Below are positions 655 through 34,391 of a DNA stretch of 64,000 nucleotides, one piece after another. The translations under genes were made by a program, and so were the position numbers. The stretch lies in the NCBI GenBank assembly GCA_017822615.1, contig GCA_017822615.1_4530.1; one strand, given 5' to 3'. The notes under the pieces are model-generated. The model searched no databases, was not told where the DNA came from, and saw only the letters and a program-made list of their open reading frames with translations. Positions within the stretch are counted from its first letter, which is position 1. Each line of letters begins with the position of its first letter. Origin of the DNA: a phage.

Positions 655-999
655 ATGAAAGTTTGGATAGATGATATGCGGAACCCAGCCGACTATGGAC
701 AGGAGGATGCAATTTGGTTTAAAACGTCACAAGAAGCTATGGCCTTTCTCAACGATCCTGCTAAACTGTATCGAAGAGTAACCGAGTGGTCTTTTGACAA
801 TGATTTAGGTATGGAGTCAGACCAAGATGGGTATGATGTTTTCCTGTACCTGGAAGAACTTCTGGCGTTTGGTAAACCTTGCTTTGGTTCACCCACCATT
901 TTCGTGCATACTTCTAATCCCGCCGCTGGGGATAAATTCATGCTTGCAAAAGAATCCATGCTGCGTTATGGTATTAAAATGATTCGTGTGCACTACTAA
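655..999 (+). CDS. hypothetical protein, possible cyclic-phosphate-processing receiver-like domain
   Basis: N-terminal MKVWIDDMRNP pattern recalled from receiver-like domains found beside RNA-repair genes; RBS aaaggagg; sits next to the RNA-repair cassette. Confidence 0.45.
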   Translation: MKVWIDDMRNPADYGQEDAIWFKTSQEAMAFLNDPAKLYRRVTEWSFDNDLGMESDQDGYDVFLYLEELLAFGKPCFGSPTIFVHTSNPAAGDKFMLAKESMLRYGIKMIRVHY

Positions 1000-1008
1000 G
1001 GAGAGAAC

Positions 1009-1152
1009 ATGCATCATTCGGTTTGGTCGGAACAAGAAGAGGACGAAGGTTACTTTATCTACCGAGAAGAAGAGGATTGGCCCGACACAAGTAATGATCT
1101 TTTACTTCCAGACGCTAGTTTTTTCGAGGATAACTTAAGAGAGGAGGATTAG
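1009..1152 (+). CDS. small acidic protein (47 aa)
   Basis: ATG with RBS aaggagag; not in track (<60 aa); fills intergenic gap. Confidence 0.35.
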   Translation: MHHSVWSEQEEDEGYFIYREEEDWPDTSNDLLLPDASFFEDNLREED

Positions 1153-1158
1153 GAAACA

Positions 1159-1515
1159 ATGAGTGGTATTGAAAACAATATTTGTTACCAACCTCTTACC
1201 TGGATGGGTGAGGGTCATTATGCGCAACGTGTTATCGTCTGTGCTGCAAATAAGTATATTTTGAATAATGGTGAAGAGTTAATTATTCCTTGTGTTCGAC
1301 ATGCAAATCCTGTACTATATGCACAGTTAAACGTGTTGAAAGAAGCAGGTGTAATCAACAAAACTTTGTGCACACCAGATAATCAAGGCTTTATCGATCA
1401 GTATTACAATTGGTGGAGTCGTGCGGATGCTTACATCATCGCGGAAAATGCTGACCAGATCGACCATGAGCGTAATGGTCACGACCATGAATTATTTAGC
1501 GAGGGATTATACTAA
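1159..1515 (+). CDS. hypothetical protein
   Basis: ORF track; RBS agaggagg. Confidence 0.6.
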   Translation: MSGIENNICYQPLTWMGEGHYAQRVIVCAANKYILNNGEELIIPCVRHANPVLYAQLNVLKEAGVINKTLCTPDNQGFIDQYYNWWSRADAYIIAENADQIDHERNGHDHELFSEGLY

Positions 1516-2066
1516 TGTTTATTACAAGTGATTTGCATTTTATGCACAAACGTATACGAGAGTTTGCTCCTGAATATCGACCGTGGGAAGATATGGACCA
1601 CATGACAGAAGCACTGATCGAAGCATGGAATAAATGTGCTACTACTCCTGGTGTTAAGATGTGGCATTTGGGCGACTTCTGTTTCGGAACTGAAGAAGAT
1701 ACCCGTAAAATTGCTTCTCGTCTCCAAGGAGATATCACCTACTGTGTTGGGAACCATGACTACAGCAAACACCGAGAAGTGCTTGCAGAGTATGGTGAAG
1801 TGGTGTATTATGACGAAGTGAAATATCAGAAGCTGTTCTTCGTCTTAAGTCATTACCCTATGGCCTCCTGGAATAAACAAGGTCGTGGATCAATCATGCT
1901 ACACGGGCATTCCCACGGATCTTTCCCTGATGAAGCTTATGGTAAAATGTTAGATGTGGGTTGGGATGCACATGGAAAAATCTTGCATTTTGATGAGATA
2001 ATTTCTATGATGAGTAAACGAGATATCGTGACTGTAGACCATCACAAAATAATCAAAGGAGAGTAA
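1515..2066 (+). CDS. calcineurin-like metallophosphoesterase (candidate RNA 3'-phosphatase / 2',3'-cyclic phosphodiesterase)
   Basis: Motifs SDLHF, GDFCFG, GNHDY, HGHSH typical of metallophosphoesterases; adjacent to RNA ligase and kinase. Confidence 0.7.
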   Translation: MFITSDLHFMHKRIREFAPEYRPWEDMDHMTEALIEAWNKCATTPGVKMWHLGDFCFGTEEDTRKIASRLQGDITYCVGNHDYSKHREVLAEYGEVVYYDEVKYQKLFFVLSHYPMASWNKQGRGSIMLHGHSHGSFPDEAYGKMLDVGWDAHGKILHFDEIISMMSKRDIVTVDHHKIIKGE

Positions 2067-2067
2067 T

Positions 2068-3000
2068 GTGGCTAAATTTAACTGCGACGATTTGGTTGAA
2101 AAAGGTTTAGTTCATAAGAAAACATATAAAGAAGGAGAGTATTCTGGTCTATCTGTTCTTAAGTATAAGAACAAAGTTTTCTGGGATAACTTATGGGGCA
2201 TTGATTCTCGTCTTCTGGAATGTCGCGGAATCGTTGTTGACGCTGATGACAATGTTGTTATTTGGCCTTTCACTAAGATTTTTAATCATTTTGAGAATGG
2301 CACAGATCTACCAGCGGATGAACTTGTAGATGTGGTTCGTAAAGTAAATGGTTTTATGGCCTCTGTGGGTGTATATAAAGGTCAACTTATTGTATCGACA
2401 ACAGGAAGCCTTGAATCAGATTTTGCAAGTATTGCAAAGAATCATATTGTTTCAGAGTGTGATGACATAGAACATTTCATCAAATGGACAGAGAGTGCAA
2501 AAGCAACTTTCCTTTTTGAAATCTGTGATCCTTCTGATCCGCATATTGTCGAAGAAGAACCAGGTGCATACTTAATTGGTGCCAGAATTCAAAACCCTGA
2601 TGGGACAAGTTTTATGTTACCTGAAGGTGCTCTTGATGGAATTGCTTCTGTCACCAAATTTAAGCGTCCTGAAGTTTATCCAATGGTTAAGTTTTCAGAT
2701 GTTGTTGAAATGTCTAAACATTGTAAACACGAAGGGTTTGTAGTTCGTGAAACAAACTATCCGTTCAACTTACTTTTAAAAATTAAATCACCACACTATC
2801 TTACTAAGAAGTTTCTTATGCGCGGTGGAGATAAAAAGTGGGATCTGATTTGGGATAATCCGAAAAATGCCAAACAAATTGTTGACGAAGAATATTACGC
2901 TTTGTTAGAATGGATTCGAAATAATTTTACGAAGACTCAATGGGCTGCTTTAAATCAGCAAGAGCGACGTGAAAAAATCGAAAACTTCTTTGGAGGATAA
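2068..3000 (+). CDS. rnlA: RNA ligase 1 (T4 RnlA-like)
   Basis: LLECRGIVVDADDN matches T4 RnlA ALECRGIMFEMDGE; nucleotidyltransferase motifs IV EGFVVR and V LLLKIKSP; motif I appears as KVNG. Confidence 0.65.
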   Translation: MAKFNCDDLVEKGLVHKKTYKEGEYSGLSVLKYKNKVFWDNLWGIDSRLLECRGIVVDADDNVVIWPFTKIFNHFENGTDLPADELVDVVRKVNGFMASVGVYKGQLIVSTTGSLESDFASIAKNHIVSECDDIEHFIKWTESAKATFLFEICDPSDPHIVEEEPGAYLIGARIQNPDGTSFMLPEGALDGIASVTKFKRPEVYPMVKFSDVVEMSKHCKHEGFVVRETNYPFNLLLKIKSPHYLTKKFLMRGGDKKWDLIWDNPKNAKQIVDEEYYALLEWIRNNFTKTQWAALNQQERREKIENFFGG

Positions 3001-3405
3001 ATGAAACAACTTATCATTTTACGTGGCGTTTCAGGTGCTGGTAAATCTACGGTAGCAGAAATTATTTCTGAAGGTTATTGGCCTATCTGTGAGGCAGATC
3101 AATATCATTACACAGAGAGTGGTGTTTACGATTGGAAGCCAGAAAATGTAGGTAAAGCACACGCATGGTGTCAGGGTATTGTTCGTGATGCTATGGCATC
3201 TAATCTTAACAAGATTATTGTTTCTAATACTTCAACCACAGAGAAAGAACTTAAACCTTATCTAGCTCTTGCTGAAGAGTTTGGTTATCAAGTTATCTCT
3301 TTAATTGTTGAAAATAGGCACGGTAATGATTCAATTCACGAGGTTCCACAATATATCCGTGATCAGCAAGAGAAACGTCTTCGTGGTTCACTTAAACTTC
3401 AATAA
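3001..3405 (+). CDS. P-loop polynucleotide/nucleotide kinase (Pnk kinase-domain-like)
   Basis: Walker A GVSGAGKST; 134 aa kinase-only protein following the RNA ligase. Confidence 0.6.
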   Translation: MKQLIILRGVSGAGKSTVAEIISEGYWPICEADQYHYTESGVYDWKPENVGKAHAWCQGIVRDAMASNLNKIIVSNTSTTEKELKPYLALAEEFGYQVISLIVENRHGNDSIHEVPQYIRDQQEKRLRGSLKLQ

Positions 3406-3414
3406 GGAGAAATA

Positions 3415-3741
3415 ATGCAGATTTATACAGATGATCGTAAATATGAGACAATTTTAGATGAAGATACTGGACGAATTACCGTTCTCCGTCACGGTGAAGA
3501 GTGGCGTGATGAAACGGGAGACAATTATATCTTGTCTCTGATTCATCTTATTGAACAAATGCGTGATGATTACGCTGAACTGCATTATGAAAATGAGGCT
3601 AATAAAGTAAAATTTGAAAATGAATTAGAAGAGAAAGAATCCGAAATGGTATATCTAAAAGAAGAGATCTCCCGTTTGGAGGAAGAGATTGATGCTCTTC
3701 AAGAAGAGATTTACGAACTCAACAACGAACTGAACGCTTAA
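3415..3741 (+). CDS. hypothetical acidic coiled-coil protein
   Basis: ORF track; RBS aaggag; heptad-like EEISRLEEEIDALQEEIYEL. Confidence 0.6.
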   Translation: MQIYTDDRKYETILDEDTGRITVLRHGEEWRDETGDNYILSLIHLIEQMRDDYAELHYENEANKVKFENELEEKESEMVYLKEEISRLEEEIDALQEEIYELNNELNA

Positions 3742-3750
3742 GGAGGGATT

Positions 3751-3939
3751 ATGAAAAAAGATATCGTTGTTGGTTGGCTGACTTGCCCTTGTGGTAGTAA
3801 TGACATAACTGTAAACACAGAGGGTGATAAAAATTATTTATTCTACGGGGATAAAATCACTTGCAATACCTGCGGACGTGTTGGTATTATAGAAACCGAT
3901 GATTGTTGTGCTTTTGAATCTTGGGATGAAGAAGAATGA
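3751..3939 (+). CDS. small zinc-ribbon protein
   Basis: CPCG...CNTCG cysteine pairs; RBS aaggaggg. Confidence 0.55.
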   Translation: MKKDIVVGWLTCPCGSNDITVNTEGDKNYLFYGDKITCNTCGRVGIIETDDCCAFESWDEEE

Positions 3940-4157
3940 GTACTGCATTTTATGTTCGTAGCGGAGACGAGGATTTTCTAGCTACTTTTGATGACGGTGA
4001 TCTTGAAGATATGTATGAAGATATGCTTGACTATGCCAAAGGGCAAGGTTTCACAAGCATTGATTATATGTTGGCAACATCTACAACGTTACTCGACGCA
4101 GATTTGGATGAAGTGTGTAACAGATTGAAAATTTCAGTTTTTAAATGGGAGGACTAA
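3936..4157 (+). CDS. hypothetical protein
   Basis: ORF track; overlapping start/stop with neighbours. Confidence 0.5.
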   Translation: MSTAFYVRSGDEDFLATFDDGDLEDMYEDMLDYAKGQGFTSIDYMLATSTTLLDADLDEVCNRLKISVFKWED

Positions 4158-5272
4158 TGCAACAAACAAATCAAACGCTGTATGGTAAAGATTCAAAAGG
4201 AAAACTTAAACAGTGGACAGTATATACAGATGGTGCAGTTGTTACTGTAGCTCATGGAAGAGTAGGTGGAAAGATCACAGAAAAATCTTATACAGCAGAA
4301 GCAAAAAACATTGGTCGTTCCAATGAAACAACACCGGAAGAACAAGCTGAACTTGAAGCTTTTGCCAAATGGACAAAACAGTTAAAGAATGGCTATTATA
4401 AAACAAAAGAAGAAGCTGAAAACCATGTTCCTTCCACACCAATGAAATGCCAGGATTATAAAGATTATCCTGAAAGGGTTGTGTTCCCTGGTTATGCACA
4501 ATACAAACTGAACGGGTTACGTTCTATGATTAACATGAAAGGGGAGTGTTTATCAAAAGCTGGGGAAGTGTATAACCTGCCACCTCATTGGAAAGGTATT
4601 CCAAACTTTATTAGTGAAGTTGTTGGTCATCCTCTTGATGGTGAAGTGTTTGCTGGGTTAGGTGTCCTTAGTCTGCAACAAATTAACAGTGCTTGGAAGA
4701 AGCATAATGCAAATACACCTTTGCTGAATTATTACGTATACGATATTCCAGTTCCAGGTCTACCGTTTGAAAAACGTGTTGATGCTCTTGCTGCTCTTAA
4801 GGCAGTAGTTGAAGATTATGGTCTTGACGAGCTTATTTGTGTAGTTCATACAGAGTATATTGAAAACCAAGAGCGGTTTGACGCTTTCTATGAAAAAGCT
4901 TTACTTGAGAAAGCTGAAGGTGTAGTATATCGTAATGCTCACGGAGTTTACGAATTTGATAAACGTTCTTATGACGTTATTAAACGTAAGCCTCGCCACA
5001 CCCTTGAAGTTAAAGTAACAAATTCAAAAAGCGATAAAAATGGCGATGGAGTGTTGACAGGTGAGATGGAAAATGGTAAAGTAGTCGAATTCTTAATGCG
5101 TAAAGATGCTCATGAGACTATCAATTATCGTAAAGCAGAGAATGCTTCTACCTTGATTAATCAGTTCGTTGAAATAGAGTATGAAGAATTTTCAGATGAA
5201 GGTATTCCAACAAAACCTGTTGGTGTTCGTATTCGAGAAATGATCCCAGGCACTTGGGAACCAGCAGAGTAA
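4145..5272 (+). CDS. ATP-dependent DNA ligase (T4 gp30-like)
   Basis: PGYAQYKLNGLR resembles T4 PAFAQLKADGAR (motif I); motif III LDGEVF, IV EGVVYR, V DVIKRK. Alternative start ATG 4157. Confidence 0.75.
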   Translation: MGGLMQQTNQTLYGKDSKGKLKQWTVYTDGAVVTVAHGRVGGKITEKSYTAEAKNIGRSNETTPEEQAELEAFAKWTKQLKNGYYKTKEEAENHVPSTPMKCQDYKDYPERVVFPGYAQYKLNGLRSMINMKGECLSKAGEVYNLPPHWKGIPNFISEVVGHPLDGEVFAGLGVLSLQQINSAWKKHNANTPLLNYYVYDIPVPGLPFEKRVDALAALKAVVEDYGLDELICVVHTEYIENQERFDAFYEKALLEKAEGVVYRNAHGVYEFDKRSYDVIKRKPRHTLEVKVTNSKSDKNGDGVLTGEMENGKVVEFLMRKDAHETINYRKAENASTLINQFVEIEYEEFSDEGIPTKPVGVRIREMIPGTWEPAE

Positions 5273-5281
5273 GGAGGAAAA

Positions 5282-5476
5282 ATGTTCTTAGCCATTTTAA
5301 TCGTTTTCAGTGTACTTTCTTTTTATTGTATGAATGCTTCGGAAAACTTTCCTAAGAATTCAAAGAAAAGAACCGTATGTGTTGTGATTGATTCATGTAT
5401 GTCTGGAGTTGGGTATGCGGTAGTTTCTTGTTTCTTAGCTTATCATTGTTCAAAATACCTGGAGGCATTTTTATGA
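5282..5476 (+). CDS. small hydrophobic protein
   Basis: RBS aaggagga; hydrophobic N-terminus. Confidence 0.45.
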   Translation: MFLAILIVFSVLSFYCMNASENFPKNSKKRTVCVVIDSCMSGVGYAVVSCFLAYHCSKYLEAFL

Positions 5477-5655
5477 TAATTTTAGCAACAATTCTTATGA
5501 TGCTGATAGCAATTGCTATTGTAATTCTGGCATCTTTTCCAGCGGATAAATGGTATTTCAATATTCCACGTATGCTTGTTTTCGGTTTCGCAGGAATTTA
5601 CATGGGTGAGACTGTAGTAAATATTAGCAACTTTCTAGAAAGCTATTTTAAATAA
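5473..5655 (+). CDS. small membrane protein (60 aa)
   Basis: ATG 5473 after ctggagg; two hydrophobic helices; track ORF 5395..5655 read as over-extended. Confidence 0.5.
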   Translation: MIILATILMMLIAIAIVILASFPADKWYFNIPRMLVFGFAGIYMGETVVNISNFLESYFK

Positions 5656-5664
5656 GGAGTTATA

Positions 5665-6390
5665 ATGATCGAGAATTTTTTTAAAGATATTAAGTTCGAT
5701 ACTGAATTTTTCAAAAATGCAGCGAAGCACGTGATTGATTGGAATGCTAAAGCACGAGGTGGTGAACAACCTGAATTCACTCAAGAGCTATTTATGTCCC
5801 AAATCGGATTCGTTCGTGAAGAGCTTAAAGAGTATGAAACAGCCGCGAAAGTAAACGATCATGTAGAACTCTTGGATGCAGCAGCGGATATTTTTGTAGT
5901 ATCCAGTTATCTGACCTACATGTTCTTTGGTGAAGAACATACGATGAATTTCTTGGACTATGCTGTAGGCGATGTTTTTACTCCAACTGTGTATACTGAT
6001 TTTGATGCTTTGGAACAAACATTTACAGAGCCAGTTCAAATGGCACTAATGGCTGCTGGTATTATGCGTATGTCTCGTGACACTCTAATCCGTTCAAAAT
6101 ATCCAGAAAAGAAAGTTATTAAAGAGGTATTGAAAAGTAATGATTCCAAGTATCCAACTAAACAACAGTTGCTGAAAACTTGGAAAACTTCGGATATCGA
6201 TTCAGCCATTGCACAAGAATGCGCTGCAATTGAAGAACGAAATGCCAATCGTCCAGAAGGGGCATACACTGGTGTTCATGCTGTTTATAATGAAAAACAG
6301 AAAGTGTATGTGTTCTTTGATGATAAAGGTAAGATCATGAAACCATCGACCTTTGTCAAACCTAATATTGCAGGTATTATTAATAAGTAA
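5665..6390 (+). CDS. hypothetical protein, possible MazG-like nucleotide pyrophosphohydrolase
   Basis: EELKEYETAA...ELLDAAADIF resembles all-alpha NTP-PPase motif; RBS aaggag. Confidence 0.45.
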   Translation: MIENFFKDIKFDTEFFKNAAKHVIDWNAKARGGEQPEFTQELFMSQIGFVREELKEYETAAKVNDHVELLDAAADIFVVSSYLTYMFFGEEHTMNFLDYAVGDVFTPTVYTDFDALEQTFTEPVQMALMAAGIMRMSRDTLIRSKYPEKKVIKEVLKSNDSKYPTKQQLLKTWKTSDIDSAIAQECAAIEERNANRPEGAYTGVHAVYNEKQKVYVFFDDKGKIMKPSTFVKPNIAGIINK

Positions 6391-6446: not shown

Positions 6447-7325
6447 ATGTTTGTAAAATCTTTTAAATCCGCTCTGCCTATGGTTGTTGGTGACAATGCT
6501 TCTGTAGCATCCCTTAACAGCATTACAGATATTCCTCTGGAATTTGTAACAGCAGAAGGCTCCCAGTCACACACTATCGGTCTTGTTCGTTTCGAAGATG
6601 ACTCTAAATTTGTAAAAGAGTTTTCAGATCTTGAACTGCTTAATGTAGGTCAATCTGTGAAGAAGGTAGATAAAAAGAAAGTTAAACGTATTCTGAATGA
6701 ACGTCTAGAAGAAATGCGTCAGGACATGGAGAGCGAAGGTAAAGAGTTTTATGTCGATAAAGAAGTAGTCAAAGCAATGAAAGAAGATATTGAATTTGCA
6801 CTATTGCCTGAAACAGAACCTGAAGATTTCTTTAACTATGTTGTCTTGGATAAAACTACGAATCTTCTTTATGTTCTTAATGGAAGTAAAAAGGTTGCAG
6901 AAGAGATTACTTCTTTCCTCCGTTCCGTCCTGGGGACTTTCCCTTCGGTAGGTTTTAGTGTGCACGAAGAAGCTATTGTAAAAGGTTTTGGTGAATTGCT
7001 GGAGAATCACGAAGCAGATCGTATTACTCTCGGAAATTATATCAAAATGGAGGATAGCGAGGGCGTTGTTGTTTGGAGTAAAGAATCTCTATACGAGTCT
7101 AAAGCTGTCGAACTAAAAGAAGATGGTAAAGATGTTGTTGCAATCGGTCTTGAATATGACGGTGTTGTAGATTTTGTAGTGGATAAAGAGTTTAAACTTT
7201 CTAAACTACGTTTTCCGAAATATTTTGCAGACGAAGAAGGTAGTATTGAAGCTTCAGTCCTTCTGTGCTTCAATGAGATTCGAGGTCTGATGGAAGATTT
7301 AACCAAAGCAACAATCCTTAAATAA
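6447..7325 (+). CDS. recombination-associated protein RdgC-like
   Basis: LLYVLNGSKKVAEEITSFLRSVLGTFPSVGFS resembles E. coli RdgC [32 protein letters not shown]; about 290 aa. Confidence 0.65.
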   Translation: MFVKSFKSALPMVVGDNASVASLNSITDIPLEFVTAEGSQSHTIGLVRFEDDSKFVKEFSDLELLNVGQSVKKVDKKKVKRILNERLEEMRQDMESEGKEFYVDKEVVKAMKEDIEFALLPETEPEDFFNYVVLDKTTNLLYVLNGSKKVAEEITSFLRSVLGTFPSVGFSVHEEAIVKGFGELLENHEADRITLGNYIKMEDSEGVVVWSKESLYESKAVELKEDGKDVVAIGLEYDGVVDFVVDKEFKLSKLRFPKYFADEEGSIEASVLLCFNEIRGLMEDLTKATILK

Positions 7326-7329
7326 GTTC

Positions 7330-7382
7330 TTGACTTGCGGGATTAGTTATGATATTATGCCTACCTACTTAATGAGGTAGGC
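7330..7382 (+). promoter_or_regulatory. sigma70-type promoter with 5'-UTR hairpin
   Basis: TTGACT 7330-7335, 17-nt spacer, TATTAT 7353-7358; hairpin gcctacc...ggtaggc 7359-7382, then RBS aggagg. Confidence 0.6.
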
Positions 7383-33117: not shown

Positions 33118-33591
33118 ATGTTTCAAGTAAATGTCAATGTGCATAATAGTTACTCTGATTGTGAAACGTGTGGCTATAATTCATCTAATGTTGTTCGTAT
33201 TAGTGGCGATTTAGGAGAAGCTTCTTTTGGAGAAGAAGCAAGTTGCTTTAGTGGTATGGATGCAGAATGGAATGATATTGCACATTGGTTGGTGAGCAAA
33301 CTAAAAGAAAAAGAGAAACCATTTCCTACCCTGCTTGATCGTTCTCTTGTGGAAGATGCAGGTAAAGCATATGCAGACTATGCGTATGCAGACGGGAAAT
33401 ATTTGGAAGATGATAAGGCTAACCATTTGCTTTATGTTTACTATGAAGCTGAATCTGCCTACGATAATTATTATAGCATGTCTAACATCCTCCGTCTATT
33501 TGCAGAGTTTGATATTTATTTCGAAGTAGAATTTTCAGAAGATGATACTTACGAATATGATTCTTATGATCCATTTGAGGAGGATGAATAA
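33118..33591 (+). CDS. hypothetical acidic protein
   Basis: ORF track; RBS aggaggg. Confidence 0.6.
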   Translation: MFQVNVNVHNSYSDCETCGYNSSNVVRISGDLGEASFGEEASCFSGMDAEWNDIAHWLVSKLKEKEKPFPTLLDRSLVEDAGKAYADYAYADGKYLEDDKANHLLYVYYEAESAYDNYYSMSNILRLFAEFDIYFEVEFSEDDTYEYDSYDPFEEDE

Positions 33592-34391
33592 TGCCAAGAC
33601 GTGTATATTTTATTAGTGGTGCGGGACTAAGTGCTGACAGCGGAATCCAAACATTTCGCACAGAAACAGATTCTGGAAAGGCATTATGGGATGAATATGA
33701 TTTAACAGAAGTCTGTGACATTTTCAACTTCCGTGACGGTTATCAGCAAGAACAGGGTATTCCTGATGCTATGGGTGGCTTAGATGTGGAAGGATATAAC
33801 CTCTACCGTAAAACTCACGACTTCTACAATAAACGTCGCGTGGAATTAGAGAAAGTTGACCCGAATCCAGCACATCTTCAGATTGGAGAATGGTTCGAAA
33901 AATACGGTGCAGAAAGGATTATTAACATCACTACTAACGTTGACGATCTATTAGAACGCGCTGGAATCGATAGAGAAGAAATATTGCACGTTCATGGTTT
34001 CTTGCCAGAAGTTGTTGTTGATAACAAAATTATCAAAGATGTGGGTTACGCAGCTATTGATGTAGACGATTACAAATATGTGAAGCCTAATGTGGTGTTT
34101 TTTGGTGAGAATGCACCACTCTACACAGACATGTATCACAAACTGGATCAACTAACATCACAAGATATGGTTATCGTTGTAGGCTGCTCTAACCAAGTAA
34201 TCAACTTCAACTGGGAACTCTTCCCTGCCCTGAATATTGGGGTTAAGATGGTTGTAGTTAACCCAGGTTTGAATTTTGTAGAACAAACTCTCTACGAAGA
34301 ACGTGGAGTGCTTGTCTACCGAGAGAAAGCAGGAACAGTCTTCAGTGATGAAGGCTTTATCAAAATGGTTGAAGACCATTTAAACAAATAA
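33591..34391 (+). CDS. Sir2-family (sirtuin-like) protein lacking the zinc-ribbon cysteines
   Basis: ISGAGLSADSGIQTFR, ITTNVDDLLERAG, HVHG, VVFFGE, IVVGCSN match sirtuin motifs; no CxxC pairs between HG and VVFFGE. Confidence 0.75.
   Translation: MPRRVYFISGAGLSADSGIQTFRTETDSGKALWDEYDLTEVCDIFNFRDGYQQEQGIPDAMGGLDVEGYNLYRKTHDFYNKRRVELEKVDPNPAHLQIGEWFEKYGAERIINITTNVDDLLERAGIDREEILHVHGFLPEVVVDNKIIKDVGYAAIDVDDYKYVKPNVVFFGENAPLYTDMYHKLDQLTSQDMVIVVGCSNQVINFNWELFPALNIGVKMVVVNPGLNFVEQTLYEERGVLVYREKAGTVFSDEGFIKMVEDHLNK

What the first reader, a model, noticed from the sequence alone, without database searches (positions are those of the whole stretch)
655..3405. RNA-repair cassette: receiver-like protein, metallophosphoesterase, Rnl1-type RNA ligase and P-loop kinase
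A T4 RnlA-like ligase sits between a calcineurin-type phosphoesterase and a stand-alone P-loop kinase, which together could supply the 3'-phosphatase or cyclic phosphodiesterase and 5'-kinase end-healing activities. In T4 these are fused in Pnkp with a HAD phosphatase, so this is a different enzyme solution. A small protein upstream (655-999) resembles receiver-like domains reported with RNA-repair genes. This would counter host anticodon nucleases.
Basis: partly seen in the sequence, partly recalled or inferred. Interest (0 to 1): 0.55.

Follow-up and report, generated by a model that had tools for sequence, protein, structure and literature searches.

The report
Phage RNA break-repair gene cassette
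This stretch of an E. coli phage genome encodes an RNA ligase with an adjacent kinase and phosphatase-type enzyme that most likely re-join RNAs (probably tRNAs) cut by bacterial defence nucleases; the gene set is real and strongly conserved, but it was already annotated and predicted in close relatives and has never been tested.

Summary
The window is a Phapecoctavirus, 99.5% identical to deposited E. coli phages.

All catalytic motifs are intact. The conserved unit is the MPE-ligase-kinase triad:
- Among 34 ligase clusters from diverse phages, the kinase lies within 3 kb in 28 and the MPE in 27, in varying order.
- Kinase and ligase are fused in some proteins, and other kinase homologs are fused to HD phosphoesterases.
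- Ligase and kinase occur in almost the same set of phage records.

cREC is an accessory limited to enterobacterial myoviruses. This gene set matches the rV5/Mydo-type "NAD-utilising RNA repair" neighbourhood predicted by Iyer et al. 2022, except that the sirtuin sits 30 kb away (33591-34391).

Best reading is heal-and-seal repair of 2',3'-cyclic-phosphate/5'-OH RNA breaks. This is inferred, not tested. It is a new member of a known, computationally predicted kind, of moderate-to-low interest.

The parts
655..999 (+). cREC protein (114 aa): receiver-fold protein, predicted cyclic-phosphate phosphoesterase. Accessory to the repair module.
1009..1152 (+). 47-aa ORF of unknown function (phrog_18323). 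In the operon but not part of the conserved module.
   Evidence: An iterated HMM search of the 89 related loci then fetched (six-frame ORFs) recovered only 3 ORF matches, i.e. close relatives only.
1159..1515 (+). 118-aa homolog of T4 Arn.3 (PF26092 family). A passenger gene of unknown function whose stop overlaps the phosphoesterase start.
1515..2066 (+). Calcineurin-type binuclear metallophosphoesterase (183 aa). Proposed 2',3'-cyclic phosphodiesterase / 3'-phosphatase for 3'-end healing.
   Evidence: Pfam Metallophos and phrog_547. All metal-ligand motifs are invariant: D6xH8, G53-D54, G79-N80-H81, H113, G131-H132-x-H134. Closest solved structure is Aquifex aq_1665 (1xm7), profile E=5e-18. 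Within 3 kb of the ligase in 27 of 34 clusters.
2068..3000 (+). Rnl1-type ATP-dependent RNA ligase (310 aa, GTG start) with a short C-terminal region in place of the T4 tRNA-binding domain.
   Evidence: PF09511 E=2.9e-15. The family profile hits T4 Rnl1 (2c5u) at E=2e-24 over T4 residues 38-264 only. Equivalents of T4 R54, K75, F77, K99, E159, E227, G228, K240 and K242 are R53, K70, F72, K92, E151, E222, G223, K238 and K240.
3001..3405 (+). Minimal stand-alone P-loop kinase (134 aa). Proposed 5'-OH polynucleotide kinase.
   Evidence: AAA_33 and phrog_505. The profile's best PDB match is the T4 Pnk kinase domain (1ltq), E=3.5e-8 over the full domain. P-loop G12-x-G14-K15-S16 and D33 (aligned with T4 D35) are invariant. 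Fused to this ligase subfamily in P0299, P0366, P0292 and in Pasteurellaceae and Campylobacter genomes, and to HD domains in 5 proteins.
5665..6390 (+). MazG-like NTP pyrophosphohydrolase in the same operon. A listed component of the published rV5/Mydo-type neighbourhood; its role in the module is uncertain.
   Evidence: PF01503 E=2.7e-6 and phrog_671. A homolog lies 1.1-4.8 kb from the ligase in rV5-like and related loci. Listed in Iyer et al. 2022.
33591..34391 (+). Sirtuin (SIR2 family), ortholog of the sirtuin that sits beside the ligase in rV5-like phages. Here it is displaced about 30 kb from the cassette.
   Evidence: 49% identical to the AlexBoehm sirtuin. PF02146 E=1.4e-20. Adjacent to the ligase in L004, L020 and L013-L017.

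Best explanation
This is a phage-encoded RNA heal-and-seal repair module whose conserved core is three separate enzymes. When a host ribonuclease, most plausibly a tRNA anticodon nuclease or another metal-independent RNase, cuts an RNA, it leaves 2',3'-cyclic-phosphate and 5'-OH ends. The metallophosphoesterase (1515-2066) opens the cyclic phosphate and removes it, giving a 3'-OH. The mini-kinase (3001-3405) phosphorylates the 5'-OH with ATP. The Rnl1-type ligase (2068-3000) self-adenylates on K92, transfers AMP to the 5'-phosphate and seals the nick. The cREC protein (655-999) is a lineage-specific helper that probably also acts on cyclic phosphates, either on the RNA end or on ADP-ribose cyclic phosphate. 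What is shown: domain identities, intact catalytic residues, operon structure, conserved linkage, gene fusions and co-distribution. What is inferred: the substrates, the order of steps and the biological target.
For: The operon is tightly packed with no internal terminator. The triad is conserved in different orders and orientations across Escherichia, Pseudomonas, Vibrio, Acinetobacter and metagenomic phages. Kinase is within 3 kb in 28 of 34 ligase clusters, phosphoesterase in 27, and both in 23; distant Rnl1 clusters give 1/19 and 2/19. In Vibrio phage VnaP the three genes form an isolated insert between the portal and terminase genes. Fusions support partnership: kinase+ligase in both orders (P0299, P0366, P0292) and in Actinobacillus, Pasteurellaceae and Campylobacter genomes, where in the two Pasteurellaceae-family loci (L091, L092) the phosphoesterase gene follows immediately. 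The kinase is also fused to HD phosphoesterases (P0287, P0336, P0398, P0377, P0400), the architecture of the characterised Runella HD-Pnk end-healing enzyme (PMC6097658). Per-genus record counts of ligase and kinase nearly coincide: Escherichia 199/198, Pseudomonas 175/173, Klebsiella 36/36, Acinetobacter 24/24. The ligase profile matches T4 Rnl1 at E=2e-24 with all essential residues. Neighbours include other RNA-repair and counter-defence genes: Rnl2-type ligase, HAD_SAK_2, Thg1, Tad3, Acb3 and NAD salvage.
Against: No biochemical or genetic test of any member was found. The phosphoesterase family is broader than the ligase. It occurs in 1410 phage records, including Staphylococcus, Listeria, Enterococcus and Bacillus phages, genera that do not appear in the top-ten genus lists of the ligase or kinase searches. 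It may therefore have a more general substrate. It shows no detectable sequence similarity at E<=1 to any characterised RNA end-healing phosphoesterase among solved structures. In the HMM alignment the kinase lacks conserved counterparts of T4 Pnk Arg38 and Arg126. The ligase lacks the T4 Rnl1 C-terminal domain that directs it to tRNA (my own knowledge of that role; alignment), so the substrate class is unknown. No tRNA genes lie in the window. If the metallophosphoesterase does all 3' healing, cREC has no clear job.
Confidence: 0.7

Rival explanations
1. NAD-dependent, eukaryote-like repair route, as proposed by Iyer et al. 2022. cREC opens the cyclic phosphate to a 2'-phosphate, the kinase and ligase join the ends leaving a 2'-phosphate at the junction, and the phage sirtuin removes it by transfer to NAD as an analogue of Tpt1/KptA. 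The metallophosphoesterase and MazG then clear ADP-ribose cyclic phosphate or other by-products.
For: The published neighbourhood (sirtuin + T4-like ligase + cREC + kinase + MazG, with or without a calcineurin-like enzyme) matches this gene set. A sirtuin ortholog is in the window and is adjacent to the ligase in rV5-like and five other loci. NAD-salvage genes are the commonest neighbours of the triad. The Runella ligase/HD-Pnk cluster also contains Tpt1, and its ligase does not seal plain 3'-OH/5'-P ends.
Against: Here the sirtuin is 30 kb away. Sirtuin and cREC accompany only 3 and 5 of 33 triad loci, so the core works without them. The ligase profile finds T4 Rnl1, which to my knowledge seals ends without a 2'-phosphate, and no fungal Trl1 ligase at E<=1. 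No sirtuin has been shown to have this activity.
Confidence: 0.12
2. DNA-end processing module. The kinase and phosphoesterase clean 5'-OH/3'-phosphate DNA nicks for the ATP-dependent DNA ligase 1.1 kb downstream, as part of the replication and recombination gene block.
For: The same operon holds an ATP-dependent DNA ligase (4145-5272), RdgC (6447-7325) and exonucleases. A DNA ligase lies within 3 kb of the triad in 8 of 33 loci. The Runella HD-Pnk paper title calls it a 'DNA/RNA end-healing enzyme' (reference list seen).
Against: The kinase is physically fused to, and co-distributed with, the Rnl1-type RNA ligase, not the DNA ligase. Linkage to the DNA ligase is much weaker than to the RNA ligase.
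Confidence: 0.08
3. The kinase is a small-molecule kinase (nucleoside or nicotinamide riboside) and the phosphoesterase a nucleotide or signal-degrading enzyme. They are co-located with the ligase only because all sit in a counter-defence island.
For: The kinase profile also hits nicotinamide riboside kinase (E=9e-6, P-loop to Asp segment only). T4 Pnk Arg38 and Arg126 equivalents are not conserved. NAD-salvage, Tad3 and Acb3 genes are neighbours. The phosphoesterase occurs in many phage records from genera absent from the ligase search's top genera.
Against: The best and only full-length structural-family match of the kinase is T4 Pnk. Fusions to the ligase and to HD end-healing domains and the near one-to-one co-occurrence with the ligase are not expected from island co-location alone.
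Confidence: 0.07
4. The ligase homolog serves mainly as a tail-fibre attachment factor, like the second role of T4 gp63, as the PHROG and RefSeq product name implies.
For: Only the inherited annotation 'RNA ligase and tail fiber protein attachment catalyst'.
Against: The gene lies in an early/replication-type operon with end-healing enzymes, all ligase catalytic residues are conserved, and it lacks the T4 C-terminal domain. The name is propagated from T4.
Confidence: 0.03

Closest known systems
rV5/Mydo-type 'sirtuin-centred NAD-utilising RNA repair' gene neighbourhood (Iyer, Burroughs, Anand, de Souza, Aravind 2022, Viruses 14:1977, PMC9503650; cREC defined in Iyer et al. 2021, PMC7824862)
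   Same: Same protein families: T4-like ligase, cREC, small nucleotide kinase, MazG, calcineurin-like phosphoesterase and sirtuin. The window proteins are 35-56% identical to those of the rV5-like phage AlexBoehm. Both are known only from computational prediction.
   Different: In this phage the sirtuin is 30 kb from the cassette. The phosphoesterase, described in the paper as occasional, belongs to the conserved core here. Gene order and orientation differ: rV5 has the phosphoesterase and kinase divergent from the ligase.
Phage T4 Rnl1 (gp63) + Pnkp (PseT) tRNA repair pathway that counters the PrrC anticodon nuclease
   Same: Same logic: 5' kinase, 3' end healing, then an ATP-dependent Rnl1-family ligase. 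The ligase nucleotidyltransferase domain is homologous, with all essential residues. The kinase is most similar to the T4 Pnk kinase domain.
   Different: 3' healing is by a binuclear metallophosphoesterase rather than a HAD (DxDxT) phosphatase. The three activities are on three separate polypeptides encoded side by side, whereas in T4 (my own knowledge) kinase and phosphatase are fused in Pnkp and rnlA and pseT are unlinked. The ligase lacks the T4 C-terminal tRNA-specificity domain and scores far below the T4 RnlA equivalog cut-off (23.9 against 242 bits).
Bacterial Pnkp/Hen1 RNA repair system (Clostridium thermocellum; my own knowledge of the Shuman laboratory literature, with Hen1-Pnkp cited in PMC6097658)
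   Same: It uses a P-loop 5' kinase, a calcineurin-type metallophosphoesterase for 2',3'-cyclic and 3'-phosphate removal, and an ATP-dependent ligase. The metallophosphoesterase 'solution' is therefore already known. The CthPnkp kinase domain is a detectable relative (4gp7, E=8e-4).
   Different: There the three domains are in one polypeptide, with Hen1 as an obligate partner and 2'-O-methyltransferase. Here the proteins are separate and there is no Hen1. The phosphoesterase belongs to a different clade (aq_1665/COG4186-like): only aq_1665 and weak unrelated hits were found among solved structures. The ligase belongs to the Rnl1 clade.
Runella slithyformis ligase / HD-Pnk / Tpt1 cluster (Munir & Shuman 2017 and 2018; PMC6097658)
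   Same: A ligase ORF overlaps an end-healing kinase ORF. Relatives of this window's kinase occur fused to HD phosphoesterase domains with the same HD-kinase architecture. There is an association with an NAD-dependent 2'-phosphate-removing enzyme (Tpt1 there, possibly the sirtuin here).
   Different: 3' healing there is by an HD domain fused to the kinase, not by a separate metallophosphoesterase. That system is bacterial, not phage. I could not test whether the Runella proteins fall in the same subfamilies.

Membership tests
Rnl1 family RNA ligase (T4 RnlA type, PF09511) | Covalent nucleotidyltransferase motifs I (KxxG), III, IV and V | tested here: met
   K92-V-N-G95, F150-E151, E222-G223 and K238-x-K240 are invariant in 8 divergent homologs and align to T4 K99, E159, E227/G228 and K240/K242.
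Rnl1 family RNA ligase (T4 RnlA type, PF09511) | Rnl1-specific N-terminal essential residues (T4 Arg54, Lys75, Phe77) | tested here: met
   R53 and K70 are invariant; F72 is conserved in the family consensus. 'LECRG' and 'PFTKIFN' align to T4 'LECRG' and 'PMEKFFN'.
Rnl1 family RNA ligase (T4 RnlA type, PF09511) | Pfam gathering threshold | tested here: met
   57.1 bits against a cut-off of 28.3, covering the whole model 1-227.
T4 RnlA equivalog (TIGR02308), i.e. an ortholog with the same specificity | Full-length match including the C-terminal tRNA-specificity domain (T4 residues ~255-374) | tested here: not met
   23.9 bits against a cut-off of 242. The profile alignment to 2c5u stops at T4 residue 264. 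The window protein has only about 60 residues after motif V.
T4 Pnkp-type 5'-OH polynucleotide kinase | P-loop GxxGxGK(S/T) plus general-base Asp (T4 Asp35) | tested here: met
   G12, G14, K15 and D33 are invariant; S16 is S or T across the family. D33 aligns to T4 D35.
T4 Pnkp-type 5'-OH polynucleotide kinase | Phosphate-contacting arginines (T4 Arg38, Arg126) | tested here: not met
   The position aligned to R38 is H/W/L/F/R. The position aligned to R126 is variable. R106, aligned to T4 R122, is near-invariant in close homologs but L or Y in rV5-like and Acinetobacter phage proteins. The lid-region alignment is uncertain.
T4 Pnkp-type 5'-OH polynucleotide kinase | C-terminal HAD 3'-phosphatase domain fused to the kinase | tested here: not met
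   The protein is 134 aa, kinase domain only. The 120 closest clusters are 82-144 aa (a few truncated) and carry no non-kinase Pfam domain, i.e. stand-alone.
T4 Pnkp-type 5'-OH polynucleotide kinase | 5'-OH polynucleotide kinase activity | not testable with these tools
   Only contextual support: fusions to the ligase and to HD domains.
Calcineurin-like binuclear metallophosphoesterase superfamily | Metal-ligand motifs DxH, GD, GNH(D/E), H, GH, GHxH | tested here: met
   D6, H8, D54, N80, H81, H113, H132 and H134 are invariant in 6 divergent homologs. Pfam PF00149 scores 24.9 bits against 21.5.
Pnkp / lambda-phosphatase clade of RNA end-healing metallophosphoesterases | Detectable sequence relationship to that clade | tested here: not met
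   A profile search of all PDB sequences at E<=1 returned aq_1665 (5e-18) and only weak Vps29, Rv0805, GpdQ and YfcE-type hits. No chain described as Pnkp or lambda phosphatase was returned.
cREC (PF20274, cyclic-phosphate processing receiver domain) | Pfam gathering threshold, receiver (CheY-like) fold and conserved acidic pocket | tested here: met
   [not shown]
cREC (PF20274, cyclic-phosphate processing receiver domain) | Cyclic-phosphate hydrolysis activity | not testable with these tools
   The defining papers state the family is experimentally uncharacterised.
rV5/Mydo-type sirtuin-centred RNA repair neighbourhood (Iyer et al. 2022) | Sirtuin gene adjacent to the ligase, cREC and kinase genes | tested here: not met
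   The sirtuin ortholog is at 33591-34391, about 30 kb downstream. The other listed components are present within 655-6390.

The most novel reading that the evidence does not exclude
The cassette, together with the displaced sirtuin, runs a phage version of the fungal/plant tRNA-splicing chemistry. cREC would make a 2'-phosphate/3'-OH end, and the short Rnl1-type ligase would seal it. The sirtuin, an enzyme class known as a deacylase or ADP-ribosyltransferase, would remove the junction 2'-phosphate using NAD. That would be a new catalytic role for both a receiver domain and a sirtuin, and a direct link between RNA repair and the NAD-depletion arms race.
Probability: 0.1. Interest if true: 0.75.

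Novelty: new member of a known kind. Interest (0 to 1): 0.3.

Why it matters
tRNA-cleaving defence systems are now recognised as common in bacteria, yet the only phage repair pathway studied in depth is T4 Rnl1/Pnkp. A three-gene repair module made of different parts occurs in about 620-740 deposited phage genomes, including therapeutic-candidate E. coli, Pseudomonas, Klebsiella and Acinetobacter phages. It could explain host-range differences on strains that carry anticodon nucleases. The compact 134-aa kinase and the short ligase might also be useful reagents. None of this is new in concept, and the prediction is already published for sister phages. The value lies in defining a clear core triad with testable proteins.

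Tried and rejected
- Single-sequence searches of the ligase and kinase against PDB sequences gave nothing useful. Profiles built from divergent phage homologs were needed.
- I suspected ORF118 (1159-1515) might be the missing sirtuin or another repair component. It is instead a homolog of T4 Arn.3, is not linked to the ligase in distant phages, and has a fold without solved relatives. I rejected it as a module member.
- I looked for NAD-salvage, Macro, HD and Rnl2 genes in the window because they flank the triad elsewhere. tblastn found none.
- I looked for tRNA genes in the window and found none.
- Literature searches for experimental work on this triad, on cREC or on COG4186 found none.
- Burroughs & Aravind 2016 and Munir & Shuman 2017 are not held.
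The ligase alignment was used instead.
- The afdb50 fold library was unavailable.
- No kinase-metallophosphoesterase fusion was found among the multidomain relatives.
Full report
**What the window is.** The first 6.4 kb is 99.5% identical to Escherichia phages Ro121c4YLVW, ESCO13 and Schickermooser (genus Phapecoctavirus, Stephanstirmvirinae). In those records the genes in question are already annotated as putative phosphoesterase, putative RNA ligase and putative polynucleotide kinase or ATPase. The receiver-like gene is annotated as hypothetical.

**Observation.** On the + strand the ORFs are:

| Coordinates | Size | Identity |
|---|---|---|
| 174-644 | 156 aa | phrog_4953, unknown |
| 655-999 | 114 aa | cREC |
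| 1009-1152 | 47 aa | unknown |
| 1159-1515 | 118 aa | T4 Arn.3 homolog |
| 1515-2066 | 183 aa | metallophosphoesterase |
| 2068-3000 | 310 aa, GTG start | RNA ligase |
| 3001-3405 | 134 aa | P-loop kinase |

Small ORFs follow, then an ATP-dependent DNA ligase (4145-5272), a MazG-like protein (5665-6390) and RdgC (6447-7325). Gaps between genes are -13 to +10 nt and most genes have a clear ribosome-binding site. The first convincing terminator is at 7359-7382.

**Ligase.** I aligned homologs from seven other phages at 22-53% identity: rV5-like AlexBoehm, Pseudomonas EM and phiPsa315, Vibrio VnaP and PG07, Acinetobacter D22, and Streptomyces Blueeyedbeauty.
- Invariant residues include R53, K70, N73, K92, G95, E151, E222, G223, K238 and K240.
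- A profile of this alignment finds T4 Rnl1 structures at E=2e-24. It aligns these residues to T4 R54, K75, N78, K99, G102, E159, E227, G228, K240 and K242.
- The alignment covers only the nucleotidyltransferase domain. The window protein has about 60 residues after motif V, against about 120 in T4.
- It scores 23.9 bits against the 242-bit cut-off of NCBI's T4 RnlA equivalog model.

It is therefore a catalytically intact member of the Rnl1 family but a distinct, shorter subfamily.

**Kinase.**
- The 134-aa protein has an invariant P-loop and an invariant Asp33 that aligns with the T4 Pnk general base Asp35.
- The T4 Pnk kinase domain is the best solved match (E=3.5e-8). It is matched across the full domain, as are weaker kinase-family hits such as the C. 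thermocellum Pnkp kinase domain.
- Capnocytophaga Pnkp1 (partial match) and the C. thermocellum Pnkp kinase domain are also found.
- Nicotinamide riboside kinase matches only the P-loop-to-Asp segment.
- Counterparts of T4 Arg38 and Arg126 are not conserved.

An exhaustive profile search shows a large family: 549 representatives at E<=1e-30 and 9208 at E<=1e-10. Most are stand-alone proteins of 130-145 aa. The multidomain exceptions are informative:
- P0299 is kinase + Rnl1-type ligase.
- P0366 and P0292 are ligase + kinase. These ligase parts match my subfamily model at 1e-36 to 1e-89.
- Five proteins combine the kinase with an HD phosphoesterase, in either order.

In bacterial genomes, two Pasteurellaceae-family loci (Pasteurellaceae bacterium LFhippo2 and Actinobacillus indolicus) and a Campylobacter locus encode a kinase-ligase fusion. 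In the two Pasteurellaceae-family loci the metallophosphoesterase gene follows immediately; none was detected in the Campylobacter locus. The HD-kinase architecture is that of Runella slithyformis HD-Pnk, a characterised end-healing enzyme whose ORF overlaps a ligase ORF (PMC6097658).

**Phosphoesterase.** All six metal-binding motifs of the calcineurin-like superfamily are invariant. The nearest solved structure is the uncharacterised Aquifex aq_1665 (E=5e-18). No relationship to lambda-phosphatase/Pnkp-type enzymes was detectable.

**Linkage.** I fetched 79 viral-contig loci with the ligase profile and scanned all six-frame ORFs with profiles of each protein.
- After clustering ligases at 70% identity, 34 clusters belong to the close subfamily.
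- The kinase lies within 3 kb in 28 of them, the phosphoesterase in 27, and both in 23. Several of the misses are at contig ends.
- In 19 clusters of distant Rnl1 homologs, mostly Streptomyces-phage type with T4-like Pnkp nearby, the counts are 1 and 2.
- Order and orientation vary: MPE-Rnl-Kin, Kin-Rnl-MPE, Rnl-Kin-MPE, and divergent in rV5.
- In Vibrio phage VnaP the three genes sit alone between the portal and terminase genes.

Counts among 50,697 phage records:

| Protein | Records | Note |
|---|---|---|
| Ligase | 740 | 119 are the distant Streptomyces type |
| Kinase | 625 | per-genus counts almost identical to the ligase |
| Phosphoesterase | 1410 | includes many Gram-positive phage records (Staphylococcus, Listeria, Enterococcus, Bacillus), genera absent from the ligase search's top ten |

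Ligase and kinase are thus an obligate pair. The phosphoesterase is a usual third partner but is not exclusive to them.

**Accessory genes.** I ran a Pfam census of 293 neighbouring ORFs within 3 kb in 33 loci:

| Neighbour family | Count |
|---|---|
| ATP-dependent DNA ligase | 8 |
| PRPP-synthetase-like | 7 |
| NAPRTase/NAMPT | 6 |
| cREC | 5 |
| SIR2 | 3 |
| Rnl2-type ligase | 3 |
| HD_4 | 3 |
| HAD_SAK_2 | 2 |
| Thg1, Tad3, Acb3, NUDIX | 1 each |

cREC homologs detectable by tblastn are limited to 349 records, nearly all large enterobacterial myoviruses. cREC is therefore a lineage-specific addition. ORF118 is a homolog of T4 Arn.3 and is not linked to the ligase elsewhere. I treat it as a passenger.

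**Relation to published work.** Iyer et al. [quoted passage not shown] They propose that the sirtuin acts like Tpt1/KptA. The window holds orthologs of all of these. However, the sirtuin (49% identical to the rV5-like one, PF02146 E=1.4e-20) lies at 33591-34391, 30 kb from the cassette. I found no experimental study of any component.

**Mechanism.** The best-supported reading is classical heal-and-seal:
1. The phosphoesterase removes the 2',3'-cyclic or 3'-phosphate.
2. The kinase phosphorylates the 5'-OH.
3. The Rnl1-type ligase seals the nick.

cREC has an auxiliary cyclic-phosphate role. Domain identity, catalytic residues, operon structure, linkage, fusions and co-distribution are shown. 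Substrates, step order and the target nuclease are inferred. I put this at about 0.7. Rivals are the NAD-dependent 2'-phosphate route (0.12), DNA-end processing (0.08), small-molecule kinase and phosphoesterase in a counter-defence island (0.07), and tail-fibre attachment (0.03).

**Verdict.** It is not a new enzyme solution: metallophosphoesterase-based end healing is known from bacterial Pnkp, and this gene set was predicted in sister phages. What this analysis adds:
- a three-gene core with quantified linkage and fusion evidence;
- the demotion of cREC and the sirtuin to accessories;
- the identification of ORF118 as an unrelated passenger.

I rate it a new member of a known kind, interest 0.3.

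Noticed in passing
[not shown]
   Followed up: partly
window 33591-34391 (+): A SIR2-family sirtuin, ortholog of the one adjacent to the RNA ligase in rV5-like phages. It sits at the end of the + strand gene block, where GC skew flips at about 34 kb, 30 kb away from the repair cassette.
   Followed up: partly
L006 (Vibrio phage VnaP) 7408-9291: The phosphoesterase-ligase-kinase triad is an isolated three-gene insert between the portal gene and a large-terminase gene that is annotated in four pieces next to a GIY-YIG gene. This suggests the triad moves as a unit and that the region is a hotspot for mobile insertions.
   Followed up: no
L005, L007, L008, L009 and other triad loci: NAD-reconstitution genes (PRPP-synthetase-like and NAMPT/NAPRTase) are the commonest neighbours of the triad (7 and 6 of 33 loci). 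Known anti-defence genes (Tad3, Acb3) also occur. The triad therefore tends to sit in counter-defence islands. None of these genes is in the present window.
   Followed up: partly
L091, L092 (Pasteurellaceae, Actinobacillus indolicus), L094 (Campylobacter sp.): Bacterial genomes encode a single ~495-aa kinase-ligase fusion of this subfamily. In L091 and L092 the metallophosphoesterase gene follows directly; none was detected in L094. I did not check whether these are prophages or cellular repair systems.
   Followed up: no
P0345, P0386: Two proteins of about 2300 aa carry three or four tandem copies of this mini-kinase domain. Their origin and function are unknown.
   Followed up: no
L011 / phi92-like phages compared with window 655-999: In phi92/Justusliebigvirus-type relatives the ligase and kinase are 88-93% identical to the window proteins, but the cREC protein is only about 46% identical. 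This suggests allelic replacement of cREC within an otherwise conserved cassette.
   Followed up: no
one search hit list: Several GenBank records named 'Campylobacter phage' (for example B15 and A141), along with an 'Acinetobacter phage' and a 'Pseudomonas phage' record, are 94-99% identical to these E. coli phages. The host labels are probably wrong.
   Followed up: no
window 6447-7325 (+): An RdgC-family protein (PF04381, E=7.5e-22) is encoded just before the operon terminator. RefSeq names it 'exonuclease recombination-associated'.
   Followed up: no
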